A DNA stretch of 26,168 bases from a virus (IMGVR_UViG_2671180921_000027:1-26168), one strand, 5' to 3'. Positions 9,106-26,168 are shown, counted from the stretch's first letter. Notes: generated by a model not told the origin, from the sequence alone. Numbers and translations are program-made.

Positions 9106-10011
9106 TTATGCCGGGGTGGTGATGTACGGGCTGTCCACGATCTCCACATCCTTGTACCAGATGTTGGAATCGCCGCCGTTAACCAGCATGGCGTCAATAA
9201 TGAGCTTCGCGTCCGCACGGTTTTTCGGCCCCACCACAAGGGTGGTCGGGCGGATGCCCAGCGGCTCACCGTTGGTGCCCTTCATGCCCCGCAGCAACTC
9301 ATTGGCTTTTTTGTAGTTCTCCACCGTCAGTGCTGCACGGGAACCGACGGCGGTCTGCCAGAAGCCGAAGCCCGCATTACAGCGACCGTCCACGCCGTAC
9401 AGGAACTCGTGGTTCTTGAAGGTGTGCTCGCTGTTCAGATCGTCCAGGGCTTCAAATTTAAAGGCGCGTCGCGTCTGCCAGATGATGGGTTTCAGCACCT
9501 GCGACTCATCAATCAGAAACCACGGTTCGCCCTGGTCCGTTCCTGGTGTACCGACAACGTTGCTGTAGGTGCCGTCGCCCAGCGGGTGGTCTTCATCAAA
9601 GAAGTTCTGGCCGTCAAAGCACAGGGTGTTAAACCCGGCACACAACAGGGCGTAACACAGCTTGTCCGGGAACACAGCAGTCATACGGCCATAGCGTTCG
9701 GCGGTAATGCTGTACTGACCTATCTGGTCATCTTCAATGTGTTCGCGCTTAACGCGAATGGAACTTTCCCAGAGTTTGTTGGTGATGGTGTAACCATAAC
9801 CGTCCAGCGTTGCCAGCTGACGCTCACCGACCCATTCTTTGATGTCCGGTAAATCTTTCATCCAGCCGTAGGTGTTGGAGGCGGACGAACTCGGCACCTC
9901 AGAAGCAATACGATTCCACTGCGGTTCGACACCACTCAGTCCACGGGTAAAGGCGGCGCTCAGGCAGGTGGTCAGCGCGTGAAGGATTTCAGAACTGACA
10001 GTCTGTCCCAT
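9106..10011 (-). CDS. Major capsid protein (Mu gpT-like)
   Basis: 301-aa ORF directly after protease/scaffold frame; TAATG junction at 10011. Confidence 0.8.
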   Translation of the reverse strand: MGQTVSSEILHALTTCLSAAFTRGLSGVEPQWNRIASEVPSSSASNTYGWMKDLPDIKEWVGERQLATLDGYGYTITNKLWESSIRVKREHIEDDQIGQYSITAERYGRMTAVFPDKLCYALLCAGFNTLCFDGQNFFDEDHPLGDGTYSNVVGTPGTDQGEPWFLIDESQVLKPIIWQTRRAFKFEALDDLNSEHTFKNHEFLYGVDGRCNAGFGFWQTAVGSRAALTVENYKKANELLRGMKGTNGEPLGIRPTTLVVGPKNRADAKLIIDAMLVNGGDSNIWYKDVEIVDSPYITTPA

Positions 10012-10721
10012 TAGTTATTCTCCTGTTTTGGTTTAGCGGCGAGGAACTCTTCCCCGGTAATACCCATGCTGCGGCACATCGCCAGTTCGGCGTCAGTCAG
10101 TGTCTGCGCGGGTTTATCCTTGCCCTGGCTGGGCTTGTCGTTGTTCACCAGCGGCTGTGCACCTTTGGTGTACTCCGCAAACTGTTTGCGGCCTTCTTCC
10201 GTGCGGCAGGTGGCAAGGAACATGTCACGGTTTGCCGGGGCCACTTTTCCGGCCTCAATGGCCGCATCCACAAGCGCTTCTGCTTCCTTCTCTTCCAGTT
10301 GCTGAAGGCGTTGTTCTGCGGTTTCGGCACGGTTCAGTGCCAGATTGTGGGTTTCCACCGGTACAAACTTCGTCAGGTCAGGTGTCTGTGCGCGGTTCAG
10401 CGCCACCTGTTCGTTCTCCTGAAGTTGTTTAATGGCGGCCACGGTATCGTCCACCGTGGCAGATTCAGCCAGCCCAAGCAGGCCGGTGATTTGCACAGGT
10501 ACTGTCATCGGGTTTTTCTCCGTATTCAGTGCAGGAAAGTCCAGGTTAGGTTTGTTGGTCAGCCCGACGCTGGACAGGCGCGTCACCACACCGTCTGCGT
10601 CAAAGAAAAACGCCGGGCTGTAATAGCGGTAACGGCGTTCGCTCAGCATCCACCGGGCGTACTTGCTCCAGACAACACGGCCTTCAATGGTGCCGCTGTC
10701 CGTCACGCGCAGTTCTTCCAC
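10011..10721 (-). CDS. Head protease/scaffold, C-terminal segment (begins at GTG immediately after the in-frame TGA)
   Basis: 236 codons in the same frame as 10722..10973; no convincing RBS before the GTG. Confidence 0.6.
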   Translation of the reverse strand: MEELRVTDSGTIEGRVVWSKYARWMLSERRYRYYSPAFFFDADGVVTRLSSVGLTNKPNLDFPALNTEKNPMTVPVQITGLLGLAESATVDDTVAAIKQLQENEQVALNRAQTPDLTKFVPVETHNLALNRAETAEQRLQQLEEKEAEALVDAAIEAGKVAPANRDMFLATCRTEEGRKQFAEYTKGAQPLVNNDKPSQGKDKPAQTLTDAELAMCRSMGITGEEFLAAKPKQENN

Positions 10722-10973
10722 TCAGCCATACGCCGGGGCTTCATCACCGCGTTGCCCTTTAATTTCGGTGGCGTGTTCAATGTCCACCGGAATTTTGATG
10801 TCGGACGAACGGGCGACCACCTCATGCGGATTACGGTTAATCCACGTCCGGCCATCGCGCCCGGTGAACTCACCCGCAGGGACGAGTTCAAGCCATTCCG
10901 GCAGTTGAGCGGGTGTCAGCTCAGGGATGGGTTCTGGCAGGGAAAAACACAGCGCCAGCAGTTCCGGTTGCAT
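10722..10973 (-). CDS. Head protease (Mu gpI family), N-terminal segment ending at in-frame TGA 10722..10724
   Basis: 83 codons with LVPAGEFTGRDGRTWIN motif; GGAGA RBS 6 nt upstream of ATG at 10973; stop TGA read directly. Confidence 0.6.
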   Translation of the reverse strand: MQPELLALCFSLPEPIPELTPAQLPEWLELVPAGEFTGRDGRTWINRNPHEVVARSSDIKIPVDIEHATEIKGQRGDEAPAYG

Positions 10974-11020
10974 GTCAGTCTCCGTCGTTTGGGGTTACCG
11001 ACGGTCAGTATGCGGAAGGC

Positions 11021-11048
11021 AGAAAAAAAGCCGGATTTACCGGCTTCA
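11021..11048 (-). terminator. Intrinsic terminator hairpin (AAGCCGG-UAAAU-CCGGCUU followed by U7), copy 2
   Basis: 7-bp perfect stem, 5-nt loop, run of 7 A on plus strand = U-tract on minus transcript; 26 nt identical to 18759..18784. Confidence 0.6.
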
Positions 11049-11069
11049 CTGAAAACGGGAAGAACACCC

Positions 11070-11109
11070 CCTTCAAAACCCCTTCAAAAACGCCACAGCA
11101 CCTTCAAAA
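11070..11109 (-). promoter_or_regulatory. Three direct repeats of CCTTCAAAA (TTTTGAAGG on the coding strand) in the F-I intergenic region
   Basis: Repeats start at 11070, 11081 and 11101 (spacing 11 and 20 bp); non-coding on the minus strand. Confidence 0.35.
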
Positions 11110-11187
11110 AAGTCAGAATGCACATTCACGCCATCAGAATAAAAAACGCGTTTCTGATGCGTTTCAGGGGGATTTACGGCGGGAGGT

Positions 11188-11952
11188 TTACTCACTGTCA
11201 AAACGGGCCTGTTTTGTCGCCAGCTGGCGCGCCAGCTCCTGCTCACGGTTTATGCCGGGATTGTAGTTCCAGCCCGGATCAATCCCTTCCGGCACATCTT
11301 CCTCTTCGCCCGTGCGTTTGTTCACCCAGCGGACAGTTCTGATTTCCGGCGCTTCGGTGTGAATGGTGCCCTGTGCCGCCAGTTGCGCATATTCACCACG
11401 GCTGACCTGACGAATGGTGCATTTGCAGCCCCAGCCGTTAGGAGCAAAATGTGTCTGCCAGAACGGATGATCTACCGGCAGACACAGACGCGCCCATTTC
11501 ACATGCTCCGCCCGGTGCTCGCGGGATGGCCCCAGCTCGTAAATCAGATACGGCATGGCCCGCTTTGTCCGTTGAATGCGTTCCCACTGGCCCGCCGCGC
11601 GGGCGGTGCGCATGTTGGTGTCAAAAATCGTGCGGAGGCGGCGGTCGCTGCCCAGCTGTACGGTTCGGGTTTCGCCCGTCAGCGGATCATCCATCTCCTG
11701 TACGCCCCACCATCCGCGTTTTATCAGCAGTGGTTGCAGCGCCTCCCGGAACTCACTGAACGTCTGCCCGCTTTGCAGGGCGTCTTCCACAAGGGTTTTC
11801 ACATCCGACAACAAATCCAGTTGCAGCATTTTTGCCACGGTGAAGCTGTTCCGGTGCTCTTCCCGCCACACATCCCGGTAATCAAAACCGGGGCGCAGCT
11901 TCTTCGCCTTCAGCCACGCCAGCGCCTCTTTCGGGATGAGGGTTTCACGCAT
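11188..11952 (-). CDS. Head morphogenesis protein (Mu F-like)
   Basis: ATG at 11952 overlapping portal stop (ATGCGTGA); ORF-track N-extension begins at TTG and is rejected. Confidence 0.7.
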   Translation of the reverse strand: MRETLIPKEALAWLKAKKLRPGFDYRDVWREEHRNSFTVAKMLQLDLLSDVKTLVEDALQSGQTFSEFREALQPLLIKRGWWGVQEMDDPLTGETRTVQLGSDRRLRTIFDTNMRTARAAGQWERIQRTKRAMPYLIYELGPSREHRAEHVKWARLCLPVDHPFWQTHFAPNGWGCKCTIRQVSRGEYAQLAAQGTIHTEAPEIRTVRWVNKRTGEEEDVPEGIDPGWNYNPGINREQELARQLATKQARFDSE

Positions 11953-13516
11953 GACCGGTGTCCCCCAGCGCACGCGCCTTAAAGCACACCTCCGCCAGTT
12001 GCAGGGCAAAGTCGTCCGCGTTCAGCGTTTCCTGAAGCTCAGGCAGGCGTTTCAGAAAGTCATCAAAACTGTCGCATTCCTGCGCCAGTGTCAGCACCGG
12101 GTTCGTGAACGCTTCGCCGGTTTTCTGCCAGTCACGCAGGGCATCATCCACCATCTGTGCCAGTTCGTCGGGGTGTTCCCGGTTCAGGGCGACGCGCTCG
12201 CGGTTCATCGCCATATCACCTGACATTCCGGCAGACACCGGATGCAGAACTTCCGCCCCTTCGTCCGGTTCAGCCAGGCCGAACCGGTCCCGCAGCTCCG
12301 ATTCCTGAACCCGCATCCCCCGGTCAATCAGCGGCACCAGAGCATCTGTCAGCGCCTTCAGATCTTCCGCTTCACTGATACGCAGAACAACACGGGGGTA
12401 GTGCGCCTGTGGCCCGTAGTTGGCCTCGATATAAGGACGCACCAGATATTCATTCAGCGTGTTAGCCAGTTGCCGCGCGTCCCAGCGCACAATGTCCATG
12501 CGCACCTGATTGTGCACGTCCGCCTGTGAACGCGAACTGCCGTTATCTGTGGTCATGGTCTGCCCCAGCACAGCCTTACTGATTTGCGCATCACACCATT
12601 CCGCCATTTCACGGAACAGTGCGCCGCCGTTATTCCGGCTGGCGATTTCCTGCATCTCCAGTTGCATGGACTGCGGGATGGCACACCCGGCATCCGAGGC
12701 AATGGAGGCAATCGCATCAATCAGCACGCGGATTTGCTCCTCCGTGGCGTTGGGACCGTATTTCCCCACCGTGACCGGAATGCCGAATTTTTCCGCAAAT
12801 GCCCACCAGTCGCGCACGGTAAAGGATTTCAGCATGTACATCACCGCCACCAGACGGGCCAGACCGTTACGCAGCGGCAGACCGGATTTCAGACGCGGCT
12901 GGTGAACAATGAATTTTCCCGGTGTCAGCGGTACGCCATCCACAGGTTCATCGTCCGTCAGCAGACGAAACTGGCGCAGCGTGGGCTTTTCGGCTTTCAG
13001 AAAACGGGGATCAACCCACTCATAATCACGGGGCATCCAGTGGTTGTTGCGGGTGTCCCACAGGATTTCACAGACCGCCACGCCTTTTCCCAGCCCGTCG
13101 AGCAAATCAAACATCAGCTCAGGGATTTGCGGGGCTTCCATCAGCGCACGGATGGCGTCCGCCAGTTGCACGTCAGCATCGTCATCACTGGCGGCCACCA
13201 CCACCGGTTCGATACCCGCCACCGTCAGCTTGCGGGTGCGCAGCACCGAGGCGTAATGCAAATCGCGTTCTTCCATCTCTTCAGCAAGGATAAAAAAATC
13301 ACGCGTGATGCCGTCGGCGGCATTGCGCAGAATGCCTGCCAGCCTGCCGGGGTTCAGCCCGGAAGCGATACTGATGCCCGGCGAGGCCGAGCGCACACCC
13401 GCCTGACGCGGACGGGCCTGTACTTCATCGAGCCTCTCTTTTTTCAGCGTATCTTCCTCACCGGTTGCCGGGTTCAGCAGACGGCGAACGGCTCCGGCCA
13501 GTTGTTTCAGGTTCAC
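11945..13516 (-). CDS. Portal protein (Mu gp29-like)
   Basis: 523-aa ORF after terminase large; GTG start at 13516 overlapping terminase stop (GTGA) with GGGAGG RBS. Confidence 0.8.
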   Translation of the reverse strand: MNLKQLAGAVRRLLNPATGEEDTLKKERLDEVQARPRQAGVRSASPGISIASGLNPGRLAGILRNAADGITRDFFILAEEMEERDLHYASVLRTRKLTVAGIEPVVVAASDDDADVQLADAIRALMEAPQIPELMFDLLDGLGKGVAVCEILWDTRNNHWMPRDYEWVDPRFLKAEKPTLRQFRLLTDDEPVDGVPLTPGKFIVHQPRLKSGLPLRNGLARLVAVMYMLKSFTVRDWWAFAEKFGIPVTVGKYGPNATEEQIRVLIDAIASIASDAGCAIPQSMQLEMQEIASRNNGGALFREMAEWCDAQISKAVLGQTMTTDNGSSRSQADVHNQVRMDIVRWDARQLANTLNEYLVRPYIEANYGPQAHYPRVVLRISEAEDLKALTDALVPLIDRGMRVQESELRDRFGLAEPDEGAEVLHPVSAGMSGDMAMNRERVALNREHPDELAQMVDDALRDWQKTGEAFTNPVLTLAQECDSFDDFLKRLPELQETLNADDFALQLAEVCFKARALGDTGHA

Positions 13517-17481: not shown

Positions 17482-17879
17482 GGGAAACCTCCATACAGAT
17501 AACGCTGAAGACAGAGCAGACCGCCGCAACTGCCACCACACAGCCAGAACACCGGATGCACCGGTGACATCATCATCAGCGTGCTGAAGACGCAGCAGAA
17601 ATATCCCAGCGCCCAGACCACCCATGACCACACGATGATGTGGCGACCAAAAGCCCGGTAACGGACCTCAGGCAGCAGGCGAAATGGCACATTCCCGAGG
17701 CTTGCGCTGTATGAAAACAACACCACCCCGGCAAAGGACAACAACATCAACACGAACGATCGCCAGCCACATAACATGCTGATGATGAACATGCAGAGTG
17801 TCAGTCCGGCCAGCGGCCATGGGGTTCTCATCAGTCGGGAACAAAGCAGCCAGTCACACAGTTTTAAAATTTTGTTCAT
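17469..17879 (-). CDS. Cys/Trp-rich multi-pass membrane protein (holin-like candidate)
   Basis: ATG at 17879; about four hydrophobic segments; first ~60 codons of the ORF-track entry look like out-of-frame overlap and are rejected. Confidence 0.45.
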   Translation of the reverse strand: MNKILKLCDWLLCSRLMRTPWPLAGLTLCMFIISMLCGWRSFVLMLLSFAGVVLFSYSASLGNVPFRLLPEVRYRAFGRHIIVWSWVVWALGYFCCVFSTLMMMSPVHPVFWLCGGSCGGLLCLQRYLYGGFPWIR

Positions 17880-18703: not shown

Positions 18704-18756
18704 AAAAGCACCTGTGAAGCAGATTTAAACGTGGTCTGCTTCATGGTGCCGGAGGC

Positions 18757-18784
18757 ATAAAAAAAGCCGGATTTACCGGCTTCA
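18757..18784 (-). terminator. Intrinsic terminator hairpin 4 nt after the Mor/C-family stop codon, copy 1
   Basis: Same 26-nt sequence as 11023..11048; 7-bp stem, 5-nt loop, U7 tract on minus transcript. Confidence 0.65.
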
Positions 18785-18788
18785 TTGA

Positions 18789-19238
18789 TTAAGGGCGGCG
18801 TGGCGGACGACGAACGGGGTGAGGCAGGTTCGGGGAGTGGTAGAACAAATCCGGCTGGTATTTATTACGCTCCAGACGTCGCATCCGTTTGATGGCCTTG
18901 TAGACGGTTTTATACGTCACTCCGTAACGCTGAACCAGTTCAGGAATATTATGGCCGTTAAAATCACGCCAGATACGCATATCCCGGACAAGATTCTCCA
19001 GAATATTCCCCCTCGGAACATAAACCTGCATCCCGCCGATATGGCGACAAATCGCCACAACCAGCTCAAGGGAATGGGCAGGGTCTGCGCCAATCCGGGC
19101 CAGCTCTTTACGCAGCAGTGCGTTCAGTTCAGAAAGTAACGCCGGATAAGCGGTGTTTTCCTGGTAATCGTTAAGGTATTCCAGAACGCTGTCGTCCCGA
19201 AGGTCTTCGAATAAATCCTGCTCTTTCATCTGTTTCAT
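18789..19238 (-). CDS. mor: Mor/C-family transcriptional activator
   Basis: 149-aa ORF; ATGA coupling to GemA-like gene; sequence resembles remembered Mor (FPALLxELNxLLRxEL...DPAHSLE..VAIC). Confidence 0.7.
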   Translation of the reverse strand: MKQMKEQDLFEDLRDDSVLEYLNDYQENTAYPALLSELNALLRKELARIGADPAHSLELVVAICRHIGGMQVYVPRGNILENLVRDMRIWRDFNGHNIPELVQRYGVTYKTVYKAIKRMRRLERNKYQPDLFYHSPNLPHPVRRPPRRP

Positions 19239-19786
19239 ACAGCAATTCTCCCGCTGTTTCGTGCGCGGGCATATGCACTGGTCAGTGCATCATATCCGCG
19301 CAGTTCCCGCCCGGATGGGCTTACAGGTAAAGGCACACCATGTCGGGCAAAGGCTTCCCGGATGCAGCGCATATGCCACTGTTTGAGCGTTTCGAGCACA
19401 ACCTGCAACGATTCCCCGTGACACCAGGCCAGTGTGGAAACACCCTGACCGCCATTACGTCTGGCCGTCAGGCGCTCAACGTATTTGTCCAGCGCGGCGT
19501 CGCTGGTATCGGAGACGAAACCATCAAGAAACATCTGTTGCCAGATTTTATAAATCTTCTCGCGCGGTGTGACATGCCCCTTAAAGCGACGGCGGGGATG
19601 TTTTTTCTGCTTCTTAAAACCGCGCTCTTTCATGGCATCGAGCACACGTTCCAGTTGTGCAACGGACAGCTCGCGGCAACTGGTCTTGCCCGTGCACTGC
19701 ACCAGAAAGGCGCGGTAAGTGTCATCGTCGAGTTGTAGATCACGACGGGCGACATGAATTAACTTAATAAGCGATGTGCGACTCAT
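19235..19786 (-). CDS. gemA: GemA-like protein (Mu gp16 family)
   Basis: Start refined to ATG 19786 with GAGAGGTGA RBS; LIKLIHVARRDLQLDDDTYRAFLVQCTGKTSC matches remembered GemA motif. Confidence 0.65.
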   Translation of the reverse strand: MSRTSLIKLIHVARRDLQLDDDTYRAFLVQCTGKTSCRELSVAQLERVLDAMKERGFKKQKKHPRRRFKGHVTPREKIYKIWQQMFLDGFVSDTSDAALDKYVERLTARRNGGQGVSTLAWCHGESLQVVLETLKQWHMRCIREAFARHGVPLPVSPSGRELRGYDALTSAYARARNSGRIAV

Positions 19787-19816
19787 TTTGTCACCTCTCA
19801 TATTAAGGAATGAGAT

Positions 19817-20221
19817 ATGAAAATTGATTACGATGAACTGGCAAGAATCCTTGATACTTTTCTGAATGCAGACAGCGCATTTATTACCCTTAAGGATGTT
19901 GGAATCGACACAACCGACGATGAAGATAAACTGATATTTCATTTATTACTGCTCGTCGAAAATGGTCTTATCGGTAACAGAGAACTGCAAACTGGCACCC
20001 CGGAGTGCATCGGTCTGAAGTTCACCACAACAGGTATTGGCTGGCGAAACATACCAATAAGGCTGACTCAGGACGGACATGATTTTGCCAATGCATTGCA
20101 TCAAAAACCTATTCTTGAACGAATCAAAAAAGAATTTGCCGAAGCCCCGTTTGATGTTGTCAAAGACCTCGGCAAGGGGTTTTTAACTCAGTTATTTAAA
20201 AAGAAACTCGGTATTGAATAA
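19817..20221 (+). CDS. Hypothetical protein, possibly DUF2513-like; AT-rich opposite-strand gene
   Basis: 134-aa ORF, the only convincing plus-strand gene; ATG 19817 after AAGGAA; 22 G+C in first 60 nt by hand count; RLTQDGHDFANAL resembles a remembered DUF2513 motif (unverified). Confidence 0.6.
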   Translation: MKIDYDELARILDTFLNADSAFITLKDVGIDTTDDEDKLIFHLLLLVENGLIGNRELQTGTPECIGLKFTTTGIGWRNIPIRLTQDGHDFANALHQKPILERIKKEFAEAPFDVVKDLGKGFLTQLFKKKLGIE

Positions 20222-20494
20222 CTCCTTACTCATTCGCTGTAGCACATCAAGGGCGGCAACTGCTGCCACTTTATCCTGACCGGCAATGATTTTTCGTAAT
20301 TCCTCAATAATCCAGGCATGGCTTAATGATTCAGCAATCATCGTGCGCTTTTCTGAAATTAAATTTTCTCTGGCCTGCTCATAGTGCTGGTATACGACAT
20401 TATCCAGAAAATCATTTACATTTTGTTCTGGCATGCCACTGGAAATTAAGGTTGCAGCCATTAAATCAGCATCAGTAATCATCTGTATTTTCAT
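20192..20494 (-). CDS. Hypothetical protein, AT-rich, convergent with and overlapping 19817..20221 by 30 nt
   Basis: 100-aa ORF; GAGGAGGT RBS 9 nt upstream of ATG at 20494; 22 G+C in first 60 nt by hand count. Confidence 0.55.
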   Translation of the reverse strand: MKIQMITDADLMAATLISSGMPEQNVNDFLDNVVYQHYEQARENLISEKRTMIAESLSHAWIIEELRKIIAGQDKVAAVAALDVLQRMSKELFNTEFLFK

Positions 20495-20554
20495 TTCTTA
20501 ATACCTCCTCGCAATAAAAAACTTCATTCGGATGGCGTTTCTGCATGTGCTCCA

Positions 20555-20668
20555 TCACCTGCATACATGCCTGCTCTGTGGGCCAGATTTTTCTGTCACC
20601 GGAATGGCATCACAGGCATCATTCCCACAGGTGCCAACCAGCAGGACAAAGCCAATTGACTTAATCAC
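20555..20668 (-). CDS. Candidate small ORF (37 aa) with hydrophobic N-terminus and near-lipobox LVGTC
   Basis: Hand translation MIKSIGFVLLVGTCGNDACDAIPVTEKSGPQSRHVCR from GTG 20668 with GGAG 7 nt upstream; below ORF-track size cut-off. Confidence 0.2.
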   Translation of the reverse strand: MIKSIGFVLLVGTCGNDACDAIPVTEKSGPQSRHVCR

Positions 20669-20945
20669 CGTTCGTCTCCATTTGTTCCAGGCGCTGCGCT
20701 TCGCGCATACACAGCTGCGCAATCATCATCTGGCGGGTAATGCCTGCACGAATAAACGAAGCTGCACGACGGAGATTTTTTGCATTCGCCTGTTGAATCA
20801 ATGCAGGCACTGATGCCAGACATTCGGCGCTGTCTTTAATCAGCGTTGCTGCTGTTATTTCTGTTTTTTGTCGTTCACTCTTTGTGGTCATAAACATCAC
20901 CATTTCAGATTCAGGCGCGAGCAATCCCCTGACGCATCGCGCCAT
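20661..20945 (-). CDS. Hypothetical early protein; start uncertain (possibly ATG at 20891)
   Basis: 94-aa ORF without RBS at first ATG; internal ATG with GGTGA upstream. Confidence 0.45.
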   Translation of the reverse strand: MARCVRGLLAPESEMVMFMTTKSERQKTEITAATLIKDSAECLASVPALIQQANAKNLRRAASFIRAGITRQMMIAQLCMREAQRLEQMETNGD

Positions 20946-20985
20946 AATTAAAAGAAAGTGAATTAATTAAATATTCGTAGTGGTA

Positions 20986-21510
20986 TTAAATACCGGCTTC
21001 CTGTTCAAACGGAATAATGGAAAAATCTTCAATTCCAGACTTAACTGTAATTCCGGCAACACCTGCTACCGCTTTCGGTTCCAGTAAAATTGCTTCCTTG
21101 TTGATTTCCTGTTTCGTGCGAATAAAGCGTTGCAGACCAAGACGCTCCAGCGTTTCCATCACCGCATCCACACCGCGAATACTTACCGATGGTGGGCGCT
21201 GACGCCATGACACATCGCCGGTTACCAGGTTCGCCGTCTTCACCTTGCCGCCGTTCGTCAGTTCGTCACGGTTCGCTTCACACCATCCCTGAACGCCTTT
21301 TGAAAGGGTTTCAATACTGGTTTTAAGCGGCGCAATCTGTGAGGCGTATTTCTCAGTAATTTCAGCGATAGCGTCATTCATTTCCGTTTCAAGTCGTGCT
21401 GCTTCGCGTTGCAGGTCCCCAATCCGGCGGATATCACATACCACGGCATCGCGGGATTGCGGAACATAAGCCGCTGCGGCGTTCTTGATTCGTTTTGCTG
21501 GTTTAGCCAT
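20986..21510 (-). CDS. gam: Gam-like host-nuclease inhibitor (Mu Gam family)
   Basis: 174 aa, MAKPAKRIK...RIGDLQREA...; length and sequence closely match remembered Mu Gam. Confidence 0.8.
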   Translation of the reverse strand: MAKPAKRIKNAAAAYVPQSRDAVVCDIRRIGDLQREAARLETEMNDAIAEITEKYASQIAPLKTSIETLSKGVQGWCEANRDELTNGGKVKTANLVTGDVSWRQRPPSVSIRGVDAVMETLERLGLQRFIRTKQEINKEAILLEPKAVAGVAGITVKSGIEDFSIIPFEQEAGI

Positions 21511-21530
21511 ATAAATAAAGCTCCTGTTAA

Positions 21531-21830
21531 TTAATATTCGCTGTATACAATGCTGGATACAGCACGATTGCTTAATTCCATCTTTTGGGCAATGACATGA
21601 ATAGCCAGCCCTTCTTTATAAAGTTCACGACACAAATATTTGTCGTGCTCACTGACCCGGTATGCACACAACGATATTCCGTGTCTTCTGGCATGTGCCT
21701 GTAGGGCGGTTGGGGCAACGTTCAGTTTCTTCGCCATTTCTTCGACGGTCATTTTCCCGACGCTGGCTTCGATAAATTCCCGGTCTTCGCGTGACCAGCG
21801 TTTACGCTTACACATCATTCCGGTCACCAC
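21531..21830 (-). CDS. Small DNA-binding protein with two helix-turn-helix-like segments; start uncertain
   Basis: WSREDREFIE...MTVEEMAKKLNVAPTALQAHARRHGI plus a second similar segment. Confidence 0.45.
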   Translation of the reverse strand: MVTGMMCKRKRWSREDREFIEASVGKMTVEEMAKKLNVAPTALQAHARRHGISLCAYRVSEHDKYLCRELYKEGLAIHVIAQKMELSNRAVSSIVYSEY

Positions 21831-22250
21831 TCAGTACAACAGGGGGTCGCGCAGTGATGCCGGAATATGCCGCAGCGATAACTGAACCGCTTTCAGGGCA
21901 AGGGAAGAATACGTCCCCTGCGTCCAGCCTTTAGCCATTCGCCGGTAATCGCGCCAGATGTTCTGCCACTGCTCCCGTGCGTCCGGGTCTGACGCGCTGA
22001 TGTATTCACGGTCCATGACGTATTCCCATAAATCCACATTGAAGGCATTGCCAAACGTAATGGCGCGGAATACCGCCTCCCCGCAATAACGCGCACAAAT
22101 GCTGTAATGGTCAAATGCAATCAGGTAAGTCTTTTCGCCATACCCCTCAACTTCGCGCGCGCAAATAAATTCGCGCAAGTCTCCACCATTGCTATTACGC
22201 TCTTTAATCCGAATTAATGCCTGGATTTCGTTTCTGATTCTGGCGTTCAT
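21831..22250 (-). CDS. Hypothetical early protein (139 aa)
   Basis: AAGGAA RBS 8 nt upstream of ATG 22250; no family recognised. Confidence 0.5.
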   Translation of the reverse strand: MNARIRNEIQALIRIKERNSNGGDLREFICAREVEGYGEKTYLIAFDHYSICARYCGEAVFRAITFGNAFNVDLWEYVMDREYISASDPDAREQWQNIWRDYRRMAKGWTQGTYSSLALKAVQLSLRHIPASLRDPLLY

Positions 22251-22270
22251 TGTCAGCGTTCCTTTGTGAA

Positions 22271-22540
22271 TTAATGTTTGGCTGCATCCGGGTTATACCG
22301 GAATAACTCGCCTTCGACTTCCAGCCCAAGTTCTCTGGCTGACTTCAACAACTCCTGGGTTGCTTTTTCAATAATTTCAGGAGCCATGCTCTTGATAATG
22401 CCTGCCATCACGTCATGCGGTCCGATTTGCTCCTTAGGAGACTGTTCTTCCAGTTGCACACTCATTCCTACAAAGAAACCTCCTTTTTTCTGAAACTCAA
22501 CATCTTCCATGCGGTTAAATTCAAAGATTACTTTTGCCAT
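22271..22540 (-). CDS. Hypothetical early protein (89 aa from refined start)
   Basis: ATG 22540 with GAGGAA RBS; ORF-track N-extension rejected. Confidence 0.45.
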   Translation of the reverse strand: MAKVIFEFNRMEDVEFQKKGGFFVGMSVQLEEQSPKEQIGPHDVMAGIIKSMAPEIIEKATQELLKSARELGLEVEGELFRYNPDAAKH

Positions 22541-22572
22541 TTTGTTATTCCTCACAAATAAATAAGCCGTTA

Positions 22573-22800
22573 TTAACGCCAGATAATCTGGCAACCATTA
22601 AGACGGGCCGTCCATACTGAACGGGCAACCCCTGATTTATGCTCCATAATCCTGACAGCGTTTCTGACCAGCTCCGGCGGTGGGCAGGTGATTTCAAGCA
22701 CCGGGCGGGCCACGCCCAGCCATGATTCGTTGACGTGACTGCCGCGCTCCTGTAACCAGGTCTTTACTTCCGTCGCCATTTTGATATTACGAGACATCAT
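22573..22800 (-). CDS. Small early protein in the Kil position, immediately after the MuB-type gene
   Basis: 75-aa ORF; AAGGAA RBS; positional analogy only. Confidence 0.4.
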
Positions 22801-22812
22801 GGTTTGTGTTCC

Positions 22813-23766
22813 TTACTGCCAGTTCAGTAACTTAGGGTTGCTGTAAGCCTCCTTAAAAGCCGCTTTAATGTGACTTTTATTCAGGGATGAACCAGCACCT
22901 TTCGCCGCCAGCCACGCATGATTCAGTGTGTGAGTTAATACACGCAATCCCCCGGGCTTTTCGGCTACCCTCATCAACAGGTCCAGCTCATCTTCCTGTG
23001 TTACTCCCCATGCTTTGGCTACAGCCATCACGTCGGTTTTTTTCACTTTGCGCAGTTGTTTCGTCATGGCAAAACGGCTGAACAGACGGGCCAGCTCATC
23101 AGTCCCACGACGGGTGGCATCCGCCATCTGTTTCGGGTTGCCAATTAAAACCATCCCCACGCCAGTGGCATCCTGAATGGCGCGTAATTGCTCCAGACCA
23201 TCCACACTTAAGTGATCAGCTTCATCAATAATCAGCAGGGGGTTAACACGGCCACTAATTTCTTTACCACCGCCCAGTTTTCTGCGAATGGCGCGGGTTA
23301 TATTCCCCTTATTTCTTCCCGGATTATTAATTTCCAGCGCATATGCTATTTCAAGGAGACATTCCGTAACGCTCGAATGTGCCGGAGCAAGCGTCACCAT
23401 CCAGGCATTAGCTGTTTTGCGGCAATATTCCCGTGCAGCAAAAGTTTTGCCGACACCCGGTACGCCAACAACAACACTAATAATCCCGAGTGAGCGCACT
23501 GTTTTAAACAGCTCATGCAAATCACAAAATGTCTGGGTCTTCACAACGCCGGGGGCACCTGACAAATTCTGCCCTTTTTGCCAGACCCGATACCATTCCT
23601 GTAATTTGTCATGCATGCCTTCAACATTGCCTCTGTACTTTCCTTTACGAAGATCAGAAAGTGTTGCCGGAGACATTCCGGCCTCATCAGCAATATCTTC
23701 CTGGGACTTGTCGCCCTCGTTAATCAAAGCGTTAATAGTGTTGAAAACATCATCAATATCAGTCAT
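22813..23766 (-). CDS. B: MuB-type transposition target-capture ATPase
   Basis: 317 aa; Walker A GVPGVGKT; N-terminal HTH-like segment; GGAGGAG RBS 5 nt upstream of ATG 23766. Confidence 0.85.
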   Translation of the reverse strand: MTDIDDVFNTINALINEGDKSQEDIADEAGMSPATLSDLRKGKYRGNVEGMHDKLQEWYRVWQKGQNLSGAPGVVKTQTFCDLHELFKTVRSLGIISVVVGVPGVGKTFAAREYCRKTANAWMVTLAPAHSSVTECLLEIAYALEINNPGRNKGNITRAIRRKLGGGKEISGRVNPLLIIDEADHLSVDGLEQLRAIQDATGVGMVLIGNPKQMADATRRGTDELARLFSRFAMTKQLRKVKKTDVMAVAKAWGVTQEDELDLLMRVAEKPGGLRVLTHTLNHAWLAAKGAGSSLNKSHIKAAFKEAYSNPKLLNWQ

Positions 23767-23810
23767 AGTATCTCCTCCATCATTACAGATTTACTTTATT
23801 TTCCTTGTTT

Positions 23811-23839
23811 AACAGTCCGTTACCGCGGACTGTTTTTTT
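23811..23839 (+). terminator. Hairpin AACAGTCCG-TTACCG-CGGACTGTT followed by T-run, between transposase and MuB-type genes
   Basis: Perfect 9-bp stem read directly; T-tract on plus strand, A-tract on the coding (minus) strand. Confidence 0.4.
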
Positions 23840-23841
23840 AT

Positions 23842-25929
23842 TCAGGCCAGCGGATCATCTTCTTCCTGCATGGCAAAAAGCTTTTGCATCCCCAGTCTGA
23901 AATCGCGTTCAAATTCTTCGTCATGCTCTTCTTCATATTCCGGTTGCTGAACTGCCACCACATTCCCAACCGGGCGATAAACATTATCCAGCCAGGGTTC
24001 AGCTTGTTTGTGCTCCAGAATCTGAATACCTTCATCTTCAGCATCACGAATTTTTTCCTCAGCGCGTTTGCGCATTCCTTTAATACGCTGTTGCTGTTTG
24101 TGATATTCCGCACTGACAGGGAAGGCTGCGCGTTTATTGCCGTTCCATATCGCCTCACAGATAAAGCTGCCGTCCTTGCGACGTACCGTAATTCGCTCGG
24201 CGTCATGAATGTCATAACTGATAAGCACTTTGCGACCGTGTTCGTCACGCAACTCCGGCGCGTAGTAAATATTGTTCAGCCACTGGATTTCGCAGCGTCT
24301 TACTGGACGCTCCACCATCGGGCGGAACATGTCGCGCAGCTCAAGATCACTCAGCCACTCAATTTCGGTGTCTTCTTCTGCCAGGCGTTTTTTTCTGAAC
24401 TCTGCCGGGCTGTAATGCCGCCCGTTCGGTTTCATCGGCAGCTCAGAATGAGGGCGGTTGTTGTACCATTCCACGCCTTCACGAATAGCCTCAATAAGCT
24501 CCGCCCACGATGGCAGCTCGCGCATTGCCGCTTTCTGGCGGTCGTTCAGAGGCTTGTCCTGTTGCATGGCGTTAAACGCTGAACGCAGATCACGGTTAAG
24601 TACACGCAACGATTCCCGGTCAGCACCCTTGCCAAAATAGGTGCGATACCTCCTGGCTATACGCATCGGCAGTGTCCGGTTCAGGCGTTCAATAATGCCG
24701 CGCCCCTGTGGATTACCGGCAATACCTGTTGGGTGTTTAATCCCCAGGCGGGGCAGAATACCCACGACCTCTTTGTCCAGCATGTCAGCCGTTTCACCAG
24801 AACCGTTATCCGAGTAATACAGAAACGGTTTTCCGTGGTTGCGAATGCCGTGCTGTATCGCACCGGCAACGGCGAACACGTTCTCGGCAAGGTCAAGACT
24901 CCAGCCAACAACAAACCGGGTTCCACCGTCGATCACAAATGTGACTTCCGGTGAGAATGGACGCCCGTGGATCGGATGTGCACATTTCAGCTTCATACCG
25001 TGACCGTCACCAATCCAGACATAATTCACCGGCATAGCTGTCCAGGCGCGGCGGGTGAATCCTTCAAGCTGACGGTATTCACTGCCGGTAACGCGCCCTT
25101 TTTGTTTCACCACTTCCGGCAGTTTTTTCATGGCATACCGGACAACATCATAGGAAGGCATCACCTCCAGCATGTACGGTTCGTCCGCATGACGACGCTG
25201 CCATTCCGCGACAAAATCCTCGTAGGCTTCAGACATAGGTCTGCCGTTCACCTGGCGATACTGCGCCAGAAACTCAGGTAGCCAGCTAATTTGTTCCGGT
25301 TTTATTTCGTCGCGTTTTCCTGGTGCCAGTAACAGCAGCCGTTCTGCGGCATTCTGTGACTGGTTGTATTTCAGCACCCACTGATAAAGCGGGTCACGAC
25401 TGATGGTGCGATTAGCGCCACGTTTTGCATTGGCGTTAACTGCGGCCTGTTGCAGGCGTTCCGGTAGTTCACCTTTACGGGCTTTTTCGACAAGATAGTT
25501 AATGGCTTTCAGCCGCCCGAGATTACCGTCGCTTTCCAGCTTCAGCACTTCCACCACCAGCGCAGCCCTTGCTTCAGATACCCGACGCTGATTTTCGGTC
25601 AGCGCATTCAGGCGTTCTTCCATCAGTTGTGGCGAACCGCGATATGCTTCGATTGCCTGGACAGCATCAGGATTACGCGCCTTCCTGGTAACGACCTGAA
25701 CTTCGGAAACGTTGTTCTCCGTAGCTACCAGTTGTTCCACATAACGTTCACGCAGCGCCTTTTGAGTCGCTTCCGGCAGACAATCAATGTGGTACTCAAT
25801 GGCTTTTGTACCTGCTCGTTTGCGTCGAAAATGCTCTGATGAGGCCAATTTTTTTATAGTGTACCTCACACCTTGCGCACTTCCCGGCATACCAGGCAGC
25901 CCCACGAGTTCGTTGACAGACACAAACAT
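23842..25929 (-). CDS. A: MuA-type DDE transposase
   Basis: 695 aa; candidate catalytic residues in VWIGDGH, YYSDNGSGE and GIIERLNRT; directly follows ner. Confidence 0.9.
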   Translation of the reverse strand: MFVSVNELVGLPGMPGSAQGVRYTIKKLASSEHFRRKRAGTKAIEYHIDCLPEATQKALRERYVEQLVATENNVSEVQVVTRKARNPDAVQAIEAYRGSPQLMEERLNALTENQRRVSEARAALVVEVLKLESDGNLGRLKAINYLVEKARKGELPERLQQAAVNANAKRGANRTISRDPLYQWVLKYNQSQNAAERLLLLAPGKRDEIKPEQISWLPEFLAQYRQVNGRPMSEAYEDFVAEWQRRHADEPYMLEVMPSYDVVRYAMKKLPEVVKQKGRVTGSEYRQLEGFTRRAWTAMPVNYVWIGDGHGMKLKCAHPIHGRPFSPEVTFVIDGGTRFVVGWSLDLAENVFAVAGAIQHGIRNHGKPFLYYSDNGSGETADMLDKEVVGILPRLGIKHPTGIAGNPQGRGIIERLNRTLPMRIARRYRTYFGKGADRESLRVLNRDLRSAFNAMQQDKPLNDRQKAAMRELPSWAELIEAIREGVEWYNNRPHSELPMKPNGRHYSPAEFRKKRLAEEDTEIEWLSDLELRDMFRPMVERPVRRCEIQWLNNIYYAPELRDEHGRKVLISYDIHDAERITVRRKDGSFICEAIWNGNKRAAFPVSAEYHKQQQRIKGMRKRAEEKIRDAEDEGIQILEHKQAEPWLDNVYRPVGNVVAVQQPEYEEEHDEEFERDFRLGMQKLFAMQEEDDPLA

Positions 25930-25931
25930 TT

Positions 25932-26168
25932 TTACGCCACCTTACGAACGTAGCGGCTGGGCCAGATCTCCTCCGGAGCCACACCGATAGCATCAGCAAT
26001 AATGCGTTCATACTTAGGGCATTTGCGGTACAAGGCATTCTTTAAAGAATCCTTGTTTAAACCTGCTTCAACTGATAGCGAACGCAAAGTAAAGCCTTTC
26101 ACATGCACTGCAGCGACAACATGTGCCGGGTGCCAGTCCTGTTTTACAACTTCATTTATAGACATCAT
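25932..26168 (-). CDS. ner: Ner-like DNA-binding regulator
   Basis: 78 aa ending ...EEIWPSRY...; ATG at the window edge, so the true start may be either of the first two ATGs. Confidence 0.75.
   Translation of the reverse strand: MMSINEVVKQDWHPAHVVAAVHVKGFTLRSLSVEAGLNKDSLKNALYRKCPKYERIIADAIGVAPEEIWPSRYVRKVA

What the first reader, a model, noticed from the sequence alone, without database searches (positions are those of the whole stretch)
10974..11187. F-I intergenic region has no G-like gene but carries phased repeats and a terminator
In Mu a G gene lies between F and I; here the 214-bp gap has no minus-strand ORF longer than about 17 codons. It holds three direct repeats of TTTTGAAGG (coding strand) at 11- and 20-bp spacing, a palindrome AAACGCGTTT, then an intrinsic terminator about 45 nt before the protease start. 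In Mu this neighbourhood carries a late promoter and the centrally located strong gyrase site (established knowledge for Mu; whether it applies here is inference). The phased repeats look like a binding array for an activator or architectural protein.
Basis: partly seen in the sequence, partly recalled or inferred. Interest (0 to 1): 0.5.

Follow-up and report, generated by a model that had tools for sequence, protein, structure and literature searches.

The report
Mu-type gyrase site plus Mor promoter
The gap between the F and protease genes of this Mu-like prophage holds counterparts of two well-studied phage Mu control elements, so it is a new example of known things rather than a new kind of element: the bendable arm of the central strong gyrase site, and a Mor-activated promoter that doubles as a terminator.

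Summary
TTTTGAAGG occurs three times at 20- and 11-bp spacing and nowhere else in the window. A strong hairpin with a T7 run lies 49 nt before the protease ATG. No G gene lies between F and I.

Repeats: they match the right arm of the phage Mu strong gyrase site (SGS). An E. coli prophage (PEC422) has a G-I spacer that aligns end to end with Mu's. It keeps Mu's gyrase cut-site sequence and carries the same 45-bp repeat block where Mu has its own three T-rich repeats, just right of the cut. Similar 11-bp-spaced repeats (TTTAAACGG type) are the most enriched motif upstream of the protease gene in 49 diverse Mu-like loci. Gyrase binding here is inferred, not shown.

Hairpin: it matches Mu's middle promoter Pm. 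It has the Mor-binding dyad, the T run and a -10-like hexamer at Mu's spacing. A second copy precedes the lysin gene. The phage encodes a Mor orthologue (63% identity) and no C protein. The activator site is therefore the hairpin, not the repeats.

Verdict: new member of known kinds, moderate interest. The block also sits mid-way in a 6.9-kb transposase-less mini-Mu-like element.

The parts
11188..12009 (-). F-like head morphogenesis gene (upstream neighbour)
   Evidence: PF04233 Phage_Mu_F, E 3e-15. Relatives annotate it as phage minor head protein.
11128..11162 (-). Hairpin just after the F stop codon, with the palindrome AAACGCGTTT (11153-11144) in its loop. It contains CATCAGAAACGCGT, a probable relic of the 3' end of a deleted G gene.
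   Evidence: Fold dG -11.5 kcal/mol, z -2.6. 14/15 match to the 3' end of Mu G; 2 of 500 shuffles reach the score. Function unknown.
11112..11132 (-). Putative gyrase core (G-segment and cleavage region), GGCGTGAATGTGCATTCTGAC. Placed only by its distance to the right arm.
   Evidence: In Mu the cut site lies 11 nt left of the first T run. This stretch does not match Mu's ATAAAATCA and is the most variable part of the spacer among 19 variants. Inference only.
11066..11110 (-). 45-bp block with the three TTTTGAAGG repeats (11109-11101, 11089-11081, 11078-11070). Homologue of the proximal right arm of the Mu strong gyrase site.
   Evidence: The block is 97.8% identical to the block in the PEC422 G-I spacer, which aligns full-length to Mu's with the block opposite Mu +12 to +58. 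Repeats 2 and 3 are nearly invariant in 19 variants.
11052..11065 (-). Distal continuation of the phased arm (TGTTCTTCCCGTTTT), with T-rich patches at about +60 and +70 from the inferred cut.
   Evidence: Local alignment with Mu TATGAATCCCGTTTT. The 66-bp arm lies at the 99.1th percentile for 10-11 bp A/T periodicity; Mu's arm is at the 99.4th.
11035..11050 (-). Mor-type dyad AGTGA-AGCCGG-TAAAT, the predicted binding site of the phage's Mor orthologue, centred at about -43.5.
   Evidence: Aligns to the Mu Pm dyad AGTAAAGCCGGTTAAT at -51 to -36. Invariant in 19 variants.
11023..11047 (-). Intrinsic-terminator hairpin plus T7 run, overlapping the Mor dyad. It ends the transcript that reads through F.
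   Evidence: The equivalent Mu hairpin is annotated as a terminator inside Pm.
11007..11012 (-). Predicted -10 hexamer CATACT of the head-operon promoter. Predicted start is near 10999; RBS GGAG is at 10983-10980.
   Evidence: It has the same spacing to the dyad and T run as Mu Pm TATCCT at -13 to -8. The start site is not mapped.
10011..10973 (-). Protease/scaffold gene I (downstream neighbour). In this copy it is interrupted by TGA at codon 84 (10724-10722).
   Evidence: PF10123. All 19 relatives have TGG at this codon.
18743..18786 (-). Second copy of the Pm-type element (dyad AATGAAGCCGGTAAAT, T7, -10 CACCAT), between the Mor gene and the lysin gene.
   Evidence: 31/32 identical to the copy upstream of I. 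Only two copies exist in the whole prophage. Alignment.
18789..19238 (-). Mor orthologue, the only Mor/C-family activator of this phage.
   Evidence: PF08765. 63% identical to Mu Mor and 32% to Mu C. It is the only Mor-family gene annotated in the prophage.

Best explanation
The F-I spacer is a composite of two Mu-type cis elements. (1) From about 11132 to 11052 lies the counterpart of Mu's central strong gyrase site. The three TTTTGAAGG repeats and the T-rich patches after them give A/T-rich minor grooves once per helical turn, separated by G-runs. Such a stretch wraps easily around a GyrA C-terminal domain and is presented as the T segment. Gyrase bound near the middle of the prophage would then supercoil processively and help bring the two prophage ends together for transposase, as in Mu. 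(2) From 11050 to about 10999 lies a Mu Pm-type promoter. The phage's Mor orthologue binds the dyad AGTGA-AGCCGG-TAAAT centred near -43.5, replaces the missing -35 contact and starts transcription about 26 nt before the protease ATG. As RNA, the same dyad and its T7 run form an intrinsic terminator for transcripts arriving from F. This phage has no C protein, so Mor drives the lysis-to-F operon and the head operon directly through two copies of this element.

Shown: the sequence features, their homologies, their conservation and their position in the genome. Inferred: gyrase binding and cleavage, the effect on transposition, Mor binding, and the transcription start.
For: Gyrase site. Mu's own record places the cut site, a terminator and P_I in the G-I spacer. 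The PEC422 G-I spacer aligns full-length to Mu's (score 65, 0 of 500 shuffles). It keeps ATAAAATCA at the cut site and carries the window's block (44/45 identical) opposite Mu's TTTTTTAAAACG...TTTTTAAACCGG.TATTTAACGG. The direct window-Mu alignment covers 39 nt, and 10 of 500 shuffles reach its score. The T-rich centres fall at about +16, +37, +48, +60 and +70 in the window and at +16, +28, +37, +49, +60 and +71 in Mu (read). A/T periodicity of the 66-bp arm is at the 99.1th percentile in the window and the 99.4th in Mu. The literature states that the right arm is essential, carries phased bending repeats and wraps a GyrA CTD with A/T minor grooves facing the protein. The block lies at 0.46-0.49 of the element length in four transposable elements. 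TTTAAACGG-type 7-mers are the most enriched words upstream of the protease gene in 49 non-redundant loci (22-45 fold). Pairs of the motif at 10-12 bp spacing, almost all at 11 bp, occur in 20 of the 49 loci and are 26 times denser there than elsewhere. The O157:H7 Sp18-type spacer has the same motif family; a Sakai prophage site is the one reported to replace the Mu SGS.

Promoter. The element aligns to Mu Pm from about -52 to -8, with the stretch AAGCCGGT.AATCCGGCTTTTTTT invariant. A second copy precedes the lysin gene, and there are only two copies in the prophage. The Mor orthologue has a nearly identical C-terminal (predicted DNA-binding) region. The element is invariant in 19 variants.
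Against: No experiment bears on this phage. The inferred core does not resemble Mu's cut site and is the most variable part of the spacer. Two generic gyrase-site scans failed their positive control: Mu's real SGS was not ranked top. They are therefore uninformative. Four of the five Mu-like prophage sites tested by Oram and Pato failed to substitute in Mu. The block is about 95% identical between elements whose proteases share only 32-33% amino-acid identity. That is more conservation than a bendability signal alone would need. The block is also kept in a 6.9-kb element, which may not need a central gyrase site. The site lies 1.4 kb (4% of the length) left of the exact centre. For the promoter, the two half-sites differ from Mu's at one base each, and the -10 hexamers are weak (CATACT, CACCAT).
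Confidence: 0.6

Rival explanations
1. The three repeats are a sequence-specific binding array for a phage or host protein other than gyrase (an activator or an architectural protein).
For: They are direct repeats with helical phasing. The 45-bp block is kept almost base for base in four otherwise unalignable contexts. These include a helper-type prophage and a co-resident mini-Mu-like element.
Against: No other promoter region of the phage has the motif. Among relatives the distance to the start codon varies from 6 to 285 nt and the orientation sometimes flips. No protein is shared at high identity by all block-bearing elements. The few small early ORFs and the lysin shared by the window-type and PEC422-type phages but weak or absent in Mu were not examined further. 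The homologous stretch in Mu is documented as the gyrase right arm.
Confidence: 0.15
2. The phased T tracts are an upstream curved-DNA or UP-like enhancer of the head-operon promoter and have no role in gyrase action.
For: The repeats lie at about -71 to -112 from the predicted start. Mu Pm is known to use an A/T-rich proximal UP subsite.
Against: In several relatives and in the 6.9-kb element the repeats end 6-30 nt before the start codon, which leaves no room for a promoter. In Mu, mutations upstream of -57 had no effect on Pm.
Confidence: 0.07
3. The block has no present function. It is a relic or a recombination joint spread by recent mosaic exchange among E. coli Mu-like elements.
For: The window phage is plainly mosaic: c, ner and A are 98-100% identical to Mu while the late genes are 27-50% identical. 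The spacer also holds a relic of a G gene.
Against: Repeats 2 and 3 are nearly invariant while the flanking spacer positions vary. The same motif family recurs in very distant, G+C-rich relatives.
Confidence: 0.1
4. The block or hairpin region acts as RNA, as a 3' UTR or leader element or a small RNA.
For: The region is transcribed as the tail of the F transcript and ends at a terminator. There is a weak sroD-like Rfam hit (20.7 bits).
Against: The Rfam hit is far below the gathering score of 50 and has E 0.2. The whole-spacer fold is unremarkable, z -1.1. No structure apart from the two hairpins is predicted.
Confidence: 0.03
5. The hairpin is only a terminator, and the head genes are expressed by read-through or from another promoter.
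For: It has a strong stem and a T7 run. The -10-like hexamers are weak.
Against: Homology to Mu Pm extends beyond the hairpin to the -10 hexamer at the same spacing. A duplicate sits exactly where a lysis-operon promoter is needed. No C gene or C-type site is present to provide another late promoter.
Confidence: 0.1

Closest known systems
Strong gyrase site (SGS) of phage Mu, G-I intergenic region, cut at 17879/17880
   Same: It lies in the spacer upstream of protease gene I, near the genome centre. It has three T-rich repeats at about 21 and 11 bp spacing just right of the core, followed by further phased T-rich patches and ...TCCCGTTTT. Homology is bridged by the PEC422 spacer.
   Different: The repeat unit is TTTTGAAGG(GG) rather than TTTTAAA(A/C)C. 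Mu's core ATAAAATCA is not conserved. The upstream gene is F, not G. The site lies at 0.46 of the length rather than 0.49. No biochemical or genetic data exist for it.
SGS-type site of the E. coli O157:H7 Mu-like prophage (Sp18 type)
   Same: It occupies the same position and has three phased repeats of the same motif family, TTTTCTAACCTG-AATTTAACGGGC-TTTAAAATCTG. A Sakai prophage site is reported to replace the Mu SGS.
   Different: The repeat sequence and flanks differ. I could not read the primary paper, so the tested fragment's identity with what I read in strain Z887 is assumed.
Mu middle promoter Pm with its overlapping terminator
   Same: It has a 16-bp dyad with a GC-rich 6-bp spacer, a T7 run, a -10 hexamer at the same spacing and no -35 element. 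The hairpin doubles as a terminator. The cognate activator is 63% identical to Mu Mor.
   Different: The half-sites are AGTGA and TAAAT rather than AGTAA and TTAAT. Here the element drives the lysis and head operons, which in Mu use C-dependent late promoters. It is present twice.
Mu late promoter P_I (C-dependent)
   Same: It has the same job, starting the head operon at gene I, and lies in the same spacer.
   Different: No C gene is present and no C-type site at the right distance. A TAACCCC at 10997-10991 lies downstream of the predicted start.

Membership tests
Mu-type strong gyrase site | Lies in the intergenic region upstream of the protease gene, near the centre of a transposable prophage | tested here: met
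   In the intact relative PSS-15 the site is 15.7 kb from the left end and 18.6 kb from the right end of a 34.3-kb prophage, a fraction of 0.46. Mu's is at 0.487.
Mu-type strong gyrase site | Sequence homology to the Mu SGS right arm | tested here: met
   The block is 44/45 identical to the PEC422 block. The PEC422 spacer aligns full-length to Mu's (0 of 500 shuffles). For the direct window-Mu alignment, 10 of 500 shuffles reach the score.
Mu-type strong gyrase site | Extended set of bending signals phased at about 10.5 bp in one arm | tested here: met
   The T-rich centres fall at the same offsets as in Mu. Periodicity of the 66-bp arm is at the 99.1th percentile against 99.4th for Mu. The measure is not unique to these sites within either genome.
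Mu-type strong gyrase site | Core resembling Mu's cleavage site | tested here: not met
   The window has GGCGTGAATGTGC where Mu has GGCATAAAATCAG. This stretch is the most variable within the family. Whether Mu's site tolerates a different core could not be checked, because the primary papers were not held.
Mu-type strong gyrase site | High score against the Topo-Seq gyrase motif | tested here: inconclusive
   The published matrix was cut from the held file. Scans with the consensus alone ranked Mu's real site only in the top 3% or worse, so the test has no power.
Mu-type strong gyrase site | Efficient gyrase binding and cleavage, processive supercoiling, and a requirement for fast replicative transposition | not testable with these tools
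   Needs cleavage mapping, footprinting and prophage replacement or deletion assays.
Mor-dependent (Pm-type) promoter | Two 5-bp inverted repeats with a G/C-rich 6-bp spacer, and no -35 hexamer | tested here: met
   AGTGA-AGCCGG-TAAAT at 11050-11035 against Mu AGTAA-AGCCGG-TTAAT. No sigma-70 consensus promoter was found in the region.
Mor-dependent (Pm-type) promoter | Dyad centred at -43.5 with a -10 hexamer at -13 to -8 | tested here: inconclusive
   CATACT and CACCAT sit at exactly Mu's spacing from the dyad, but the transcription start is not mapped.
Mor-dependent (Pm-type) promoter | A cognate Mor protein is encoded | tested here: met
   The 149-aa protein matches PF08765 and is 63% identical to Mu Mor; the segment aligned to Mor's C-terminal region is nearly identical.
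Mor-dependent (Pm-type) promoter | Transcription depends on Mor | not testable with these tools
   Needs reporter fusions, EMSA or 5' end mapping.
Intrinsic terminator | G+C-rich hairpin followed by a U run | tested here: met
   8-bp stem, 5-nt loop, seven U residues, dG about -12.6 kcal/mol, z -3.3.
C-dependent late promoter (Mu P_I type) | A C protein and a C-binding dyad about 30-55 bp upstream of the start | tested here: not met
   The prophage has one Mor-family gene, only 32% identical to C. No counterpart of the Mu late-promoter sequence sits at the right distance.

The most novel reading that the evidence does not exclude
The repeat array may be more than generic bendable DNA. It could be a portable module under base-by-base selection, either an optimised gyrase-wrapping arm or the site of an unidentified factor. 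E. coli Mu-like phages with unrelated late regions share it with a 6.9-kb transposase-less mini-Mu-like element that lives beside them. Its wider form, two or three TTTAAACGG-type repeats 11 bp apart upstream of the protease gene, would then be the conserved signature of a central gyrase site across transposable phages. A 2021 paper states that such conservation is unresolved.
Probability: 0.3. Interest if true: 0.65.

Novelty: new member of a known kind. Interest (0 to 1): 0.4.

Why it matters
For this prophage, the result replaces "repeats plus terminator" with a concrete map that can be tested: a candidate central gyrase site, and the promoter that starts the head operon. It also shows a simpler cascade than Mu's, in which a single Mor-type activator drives the late operons and no C protein is involved.

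More widely, the same motif upstream of the protease gene in many distant Mu-like phages gives a sequence handle on an open question: do transposable phages in general keep a central gyrase site? The near-identical block in a small transposase-less element with Mu-type ends points to a possible satellite of Mu-like phages that deserves study.

Tried and rejected
1. I scanned Mu, the window and the PSS-15 prophage with the published 133-bp gyrase consensus, scoring identity and strong/weak base match. Mu's true SGS was not among the top sites, so the method is invalid without the real weight matrix. That matrix was cut from the held supplementary file.

2. A right-arm-only template gave a local maximum in the correct phase at both sites. 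It ranked Mu's site only about 2200th of 73,000 positions, so I did not use it as evidence.

3. A genome-wide Fourier scan of A/T content at 10-11 bp did not pick out Mu's SGS among the top peaks. I report only the percentile of the arm itself.

5. The primary SGS papers (PMC438558, PMC1347280) are not held. What I say about them comes from reviews and later papers.

6. The RNA-element idea was rejected: no Rfam family matches and the fold is unremarkable.

7. A coding gene in the gap was rejected.

8. The idea that the repeats are the Mor or C site was rejected.

9. I first read the second block-bearing element as an integrase island at tRNA-Pro. This was corrected after a second copy showed Mu-type ends and a 5-bp target duplication inside ddpC.

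Full report
**Context**

The window is a Mu-like prophage read on the minus strand. It encodes transposase A (23842-25929), B, a Mor-family gene (18789-19238), a lysin, terminase, portal, F (11188-12009), protease I (10011-10973) and the major head gene. Pfam confirms F, the protease and Mor. About 46 complete E. coli genomes carry the same prophage at 95-99% identity. One intact copy, in strain PSS-15 (locus L002), gave the whole 34.3-kb element with its annotation.

**The observation**

- TTTTGAAGG occurs three times, at 11109-11101, 11089-11081 and 11078-11070, and nowhere else in the window. The chance expectation is 0.22.
- The palindrome AAACGCGTTT is at 11153-11144. It lies in the loop of a second hairpin at 11162-11128.
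- The hairpin GAAGCCGG-TAAAT-CCGGCTTT and its T7 run occupy 11047-11023.

One small correction concerns ORFs. A 23-codon ORF lies in the gap, and a 57-codon ORF starts in F and crosses part of the gap. Neither has a family match or an annotation, and one-base indels among variants argue against coding. The G family is not absent from the phage: a PF05069 gene, 24% identical to Mu G, lies at 7737-8282.

**What the repeats are**

The key lead was a 45-bp match to the repeat block in a different prophage, in E. coli PEC422. That prophage has a G gene and is otherwise too diverged to align with the window. Its G-I spacer aligns along its full length to that of phage Mu (score 65; 0 of 500 shuffles reach it). 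Mu's gyrase cut-site sequence ATAAAATCA is conserved there. The block lies opposite Mu's TTTTTTAAAACG-N-TTTTTAAACCGG-TATTTAACGG, which starts 12 nt to the right of the annotated cut.

The window also aligns to Mu directly over 39 nt: TTTTTGAAGGGGTTTTGAAGGGGGTGTTCTTCCCGTTTT against TTTTTAAACCGGTATTTAACGGTGTATGAATCCCGTTTT. Ten of 500 shuffles reach that score. Mu thus has the same three-repeat layout, at about 21 and 11 bp, with a different unit. Counted from the inferred cut, the T-rich centres lie near +16, +37, +48, +60 and +70 in the window. In Mu they lie near +16, +28, +37, +49, +60 and +71.

The literature I could read says the following.
- Mu's right arm is essential and carries repeat motifs that give phased bending.
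- The arm wraps a GyrA C-terminal domain with A/T minor grooves facing the protein, and it supplies the T segment.
- The site must be central to promote synapsis of the prophage ends.

The 66-bp arm of the window is at the 99.1th percentile of the window for 10-11 bp A/T periodicity. Mu's arm is at the 99.4th percentile of its genome. This is supportive but not diagnostic.

**Wider comparison**

A pattern scan of viral contigs found the block in four different flank contexts, always just upstream of a Mu-type protease gene. A profile search then gave 80 loci with protease homologues. Among 49 non-redundant loci, the most widely shared and most enriched 7-mers in the 300 bp upstream of the gene are TTAAACG, TTTAAAC and TAAACGG (22-45 fold). 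Pairs of TTTAAACGG-like units at 10-12 bp spacing, almost all at 11 bp, occur there in 20 of the 49 loci. They are 26 times denser there than elsewhere in the loci.

The distance from the motif to the start codon varies from 6 to 285 nt. A few cases are inverted, including Pseudomonas phage Ab30. That variation argues against a promoter-bound or translation-bound role. It fits a site whose place in the genome matters more than its place relative to the gene.

The O157:H7 Sp18-type spacer has the same motif family. A review reports that the Sakai prophage site was the only one of several tested that replaced the Mu SGS. A 2021 paper states that it is unclear whether gyrase sites are conserved in transposable phages. 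I have not seen the family-wide motif described, but I could not read the two primary papers.

**What the "terminator" is**

The hairpin has a 31/32 copy at 18784-18753, between the Mor gene and the lysin gene. These are the only two copies in the whole prophage. Printing Mu's annotated promoters showed that the hairpin region is homologous to Mu's middle promoter Pm:
- Mu: AGTAAAGCCGGTTAATCCGGCTTTTTTTACGTCCTCAATATCCT
- window: AGTGAAGCCGGTAAATCCGGCTTTTTTTCTGCCTTCCGCATACT

In Mu, Mor binds a 16-bp dyad at -51 to -36, centred at -43.5. The dyad has two 5-bp inverted repeats and a G/C-rich 6-bp spacer. There is no -35 element. Mu's record also annotates a terminator inside Pm.

With the same numbering, the window has the following.
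- Dyad: 11050-11035.
- -10 hexamer CATACT: 11012-11007.
- Predicted start: near 10999.
- RBS GGAG: 10983-10980.

The lysin copy has CACCAT at the same spacing. The phage's single Mor-family protein is 63% identical to Mu Mor and 32% to C, and its C-terminal region is almost unchanged. The whole element is invariant among 19 variants of the spacer. I conclude that the hairpin is both the terminator of the transcript reading through F and the activator site of the head-operon promoter. This phage runs its late genes from Mor directly.

**A complication and what it adds**

Two of the block contexts belong to a small element found in nine E. coli genomes, mostly the same strains that carry the window-type prophage. 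In strain RIVM_C037166 it is 6,896 bp long (L133 7784-14679) and lies inside ddpC.
- It is flanked by a 5-bp duplication, ATGGA.
- It starts with TGTGATGGTTCATGATAAATACGAAAAG. Mu starts with TGTATTGATTCACTTGAAGTACGAAAAA.
- Its right end aligns to Mu's right-end transposase sites; 0 of 300 shuffles reach the score.
- It encodes ash-like and Icd-like proteins, a gp27-family protein, a Mor-family protein, a protease, a gpT capsid protein and a tape-measure-like protein. It has no transposase.

It therefore looks like a natural mini-Mu-like element that depends on a helper phage. The block sits at 0.46 of its length. The fractions elsewhere are 0.46 in the window-type phage, 0.485 in the PEC422 prophage and 0.487 in Mu. 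This central position fits the gyrase-site model.

The block is about 95% identical between elements whose proteases share only 32-33% amino-acid identity. That is more conservation than bendability alone would explain. A proteome comparison found no protein shared at high identity by all block-bearing elements. No binding factor other than a host protein is therefore suggested. The window phage is plainly mosaic: its early region is 98-100% identical to Mu and its late region 27-50%. Recent exchange of the block is therefore also possible.

**Limits**

Gyrase binding, the cut position, the effect on transposition, Mor binding and the start site are all inferred. The inferred core differs from Mu's and varies within the family. 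Three generic computational gyrase-site tests failed their positive control on Mu and carry no weight. In Ab30 the segment free of insertions, which its authors proposed as the SGS, lies about 0.9 kb from the motif I found there.

**Verdict**

The finding is real and is explained by two known Mu elements in a new combination. It is a new member of known kinds and of moderate interest. The family-wide motif and the small helper-dependent element are the parts worth following up.

Noticed in passing
window 10722-10724 (minus strand, codon 84 of protease gene I): TGG is changed to TGA, splitting the protease gene into ORFs of 83 and 236 codons. All 19 relatives examined have TGG. This copy of the prophage is probably defective, unless the change is a sequencing error.
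   Followed up: yes
L133 7784-14679 (E. coli RIVM_C037166, inside ddpC); also L131, L046 and L026: A 6.9-kb element with Mu-type ends and a 5-bp target duplication (ATGGA) but no transposase. It encodes ash-like, Icd-like, gp27-family, Mor-family, protease, gpT capsid and tape-measure-like proteins. It is found mostly in strains that also carry the window-type prophage, and it carries the same 45-bp repeat block at mid-length. It is a candidate satellite of Mu-like phages. I found no description in the held library.
   Followed up: partly
window 19235-26168 compared with Mu; whole prophage in L002: The phage is a mosaic. Repressor c, ner and transposase A are 98-100% identical in protein to Mu. 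Terminase, portal, F, protease, head and tail proteins are only 27-50% identical.
   Followed up: partly
window 11146-11159: CATCAGAAACGCGT matches the 3' end of the Mu G gene at 14 of 15 positions; 2 of 500 shuffles reach the score. The spacer seems to keep a relic of a G gene that was deleted from this position. A G-family gene now lies at 7737-8282.
   Followed up: partly
window 18743-18786: A second copy of the Mor-dyad/terminator/-10 element sits between the Mor gene and the lysin gene, where Mu has Pm. The lysis operon is therefore probably Mor-driven as well, and the phage lacks Mu's separate C step.
   Followed up: yes
window 10991-10997: TAACCCC, followed by ACTGAC, resembles part of Mu's P_I sequence (ATAACCCC...AACTGAC). 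It lies downstream of the predicted start and too close to the ATG to serve as a C-type promoter. It may be a relic or a chance match.
   Followed up: no
L130 2130-2160 (Pseudomonas phage Ab30, record 19,629-19,659): The repeat motif (CCCCGTTAGAA twice, which is the reverse of TTCTAACGGGG) lies next to the protease gene in inverted orientation. It is about 0.9 kb from the insertion-free segment that the phage's authors proposed as the gyrase site. The G-downstream spacer there holds a different palindromic repeat ahead of three small genes.
   Followed up: no
upstream regions of L067, L068, L078, L083, L088, L089 and L090; window 11167-11152: A dyad of the form CTGA(A/C)-N4-5-(T/G)TCAG recurs 60-100 bp upstream of the protease start in many distant Mu-like loci; CCCCTGA is enriched 16-fold. 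It may be their late-activator site. The window has CTGAAACGCATCAG on the far side of the repeats.
   Followed up: no
window 9028-9105 (spacer after the major head gene; L002 22082-22159): A long inverted repeat, CAGTTAAAAGG...CCTTTTAACTG CCTTTTAAAAGGCAG, follows the head gene. It is probably a terminator. It also produced the only strong off-target hits of the TTTAAACGG pair search in this phage.
   Followed up: no
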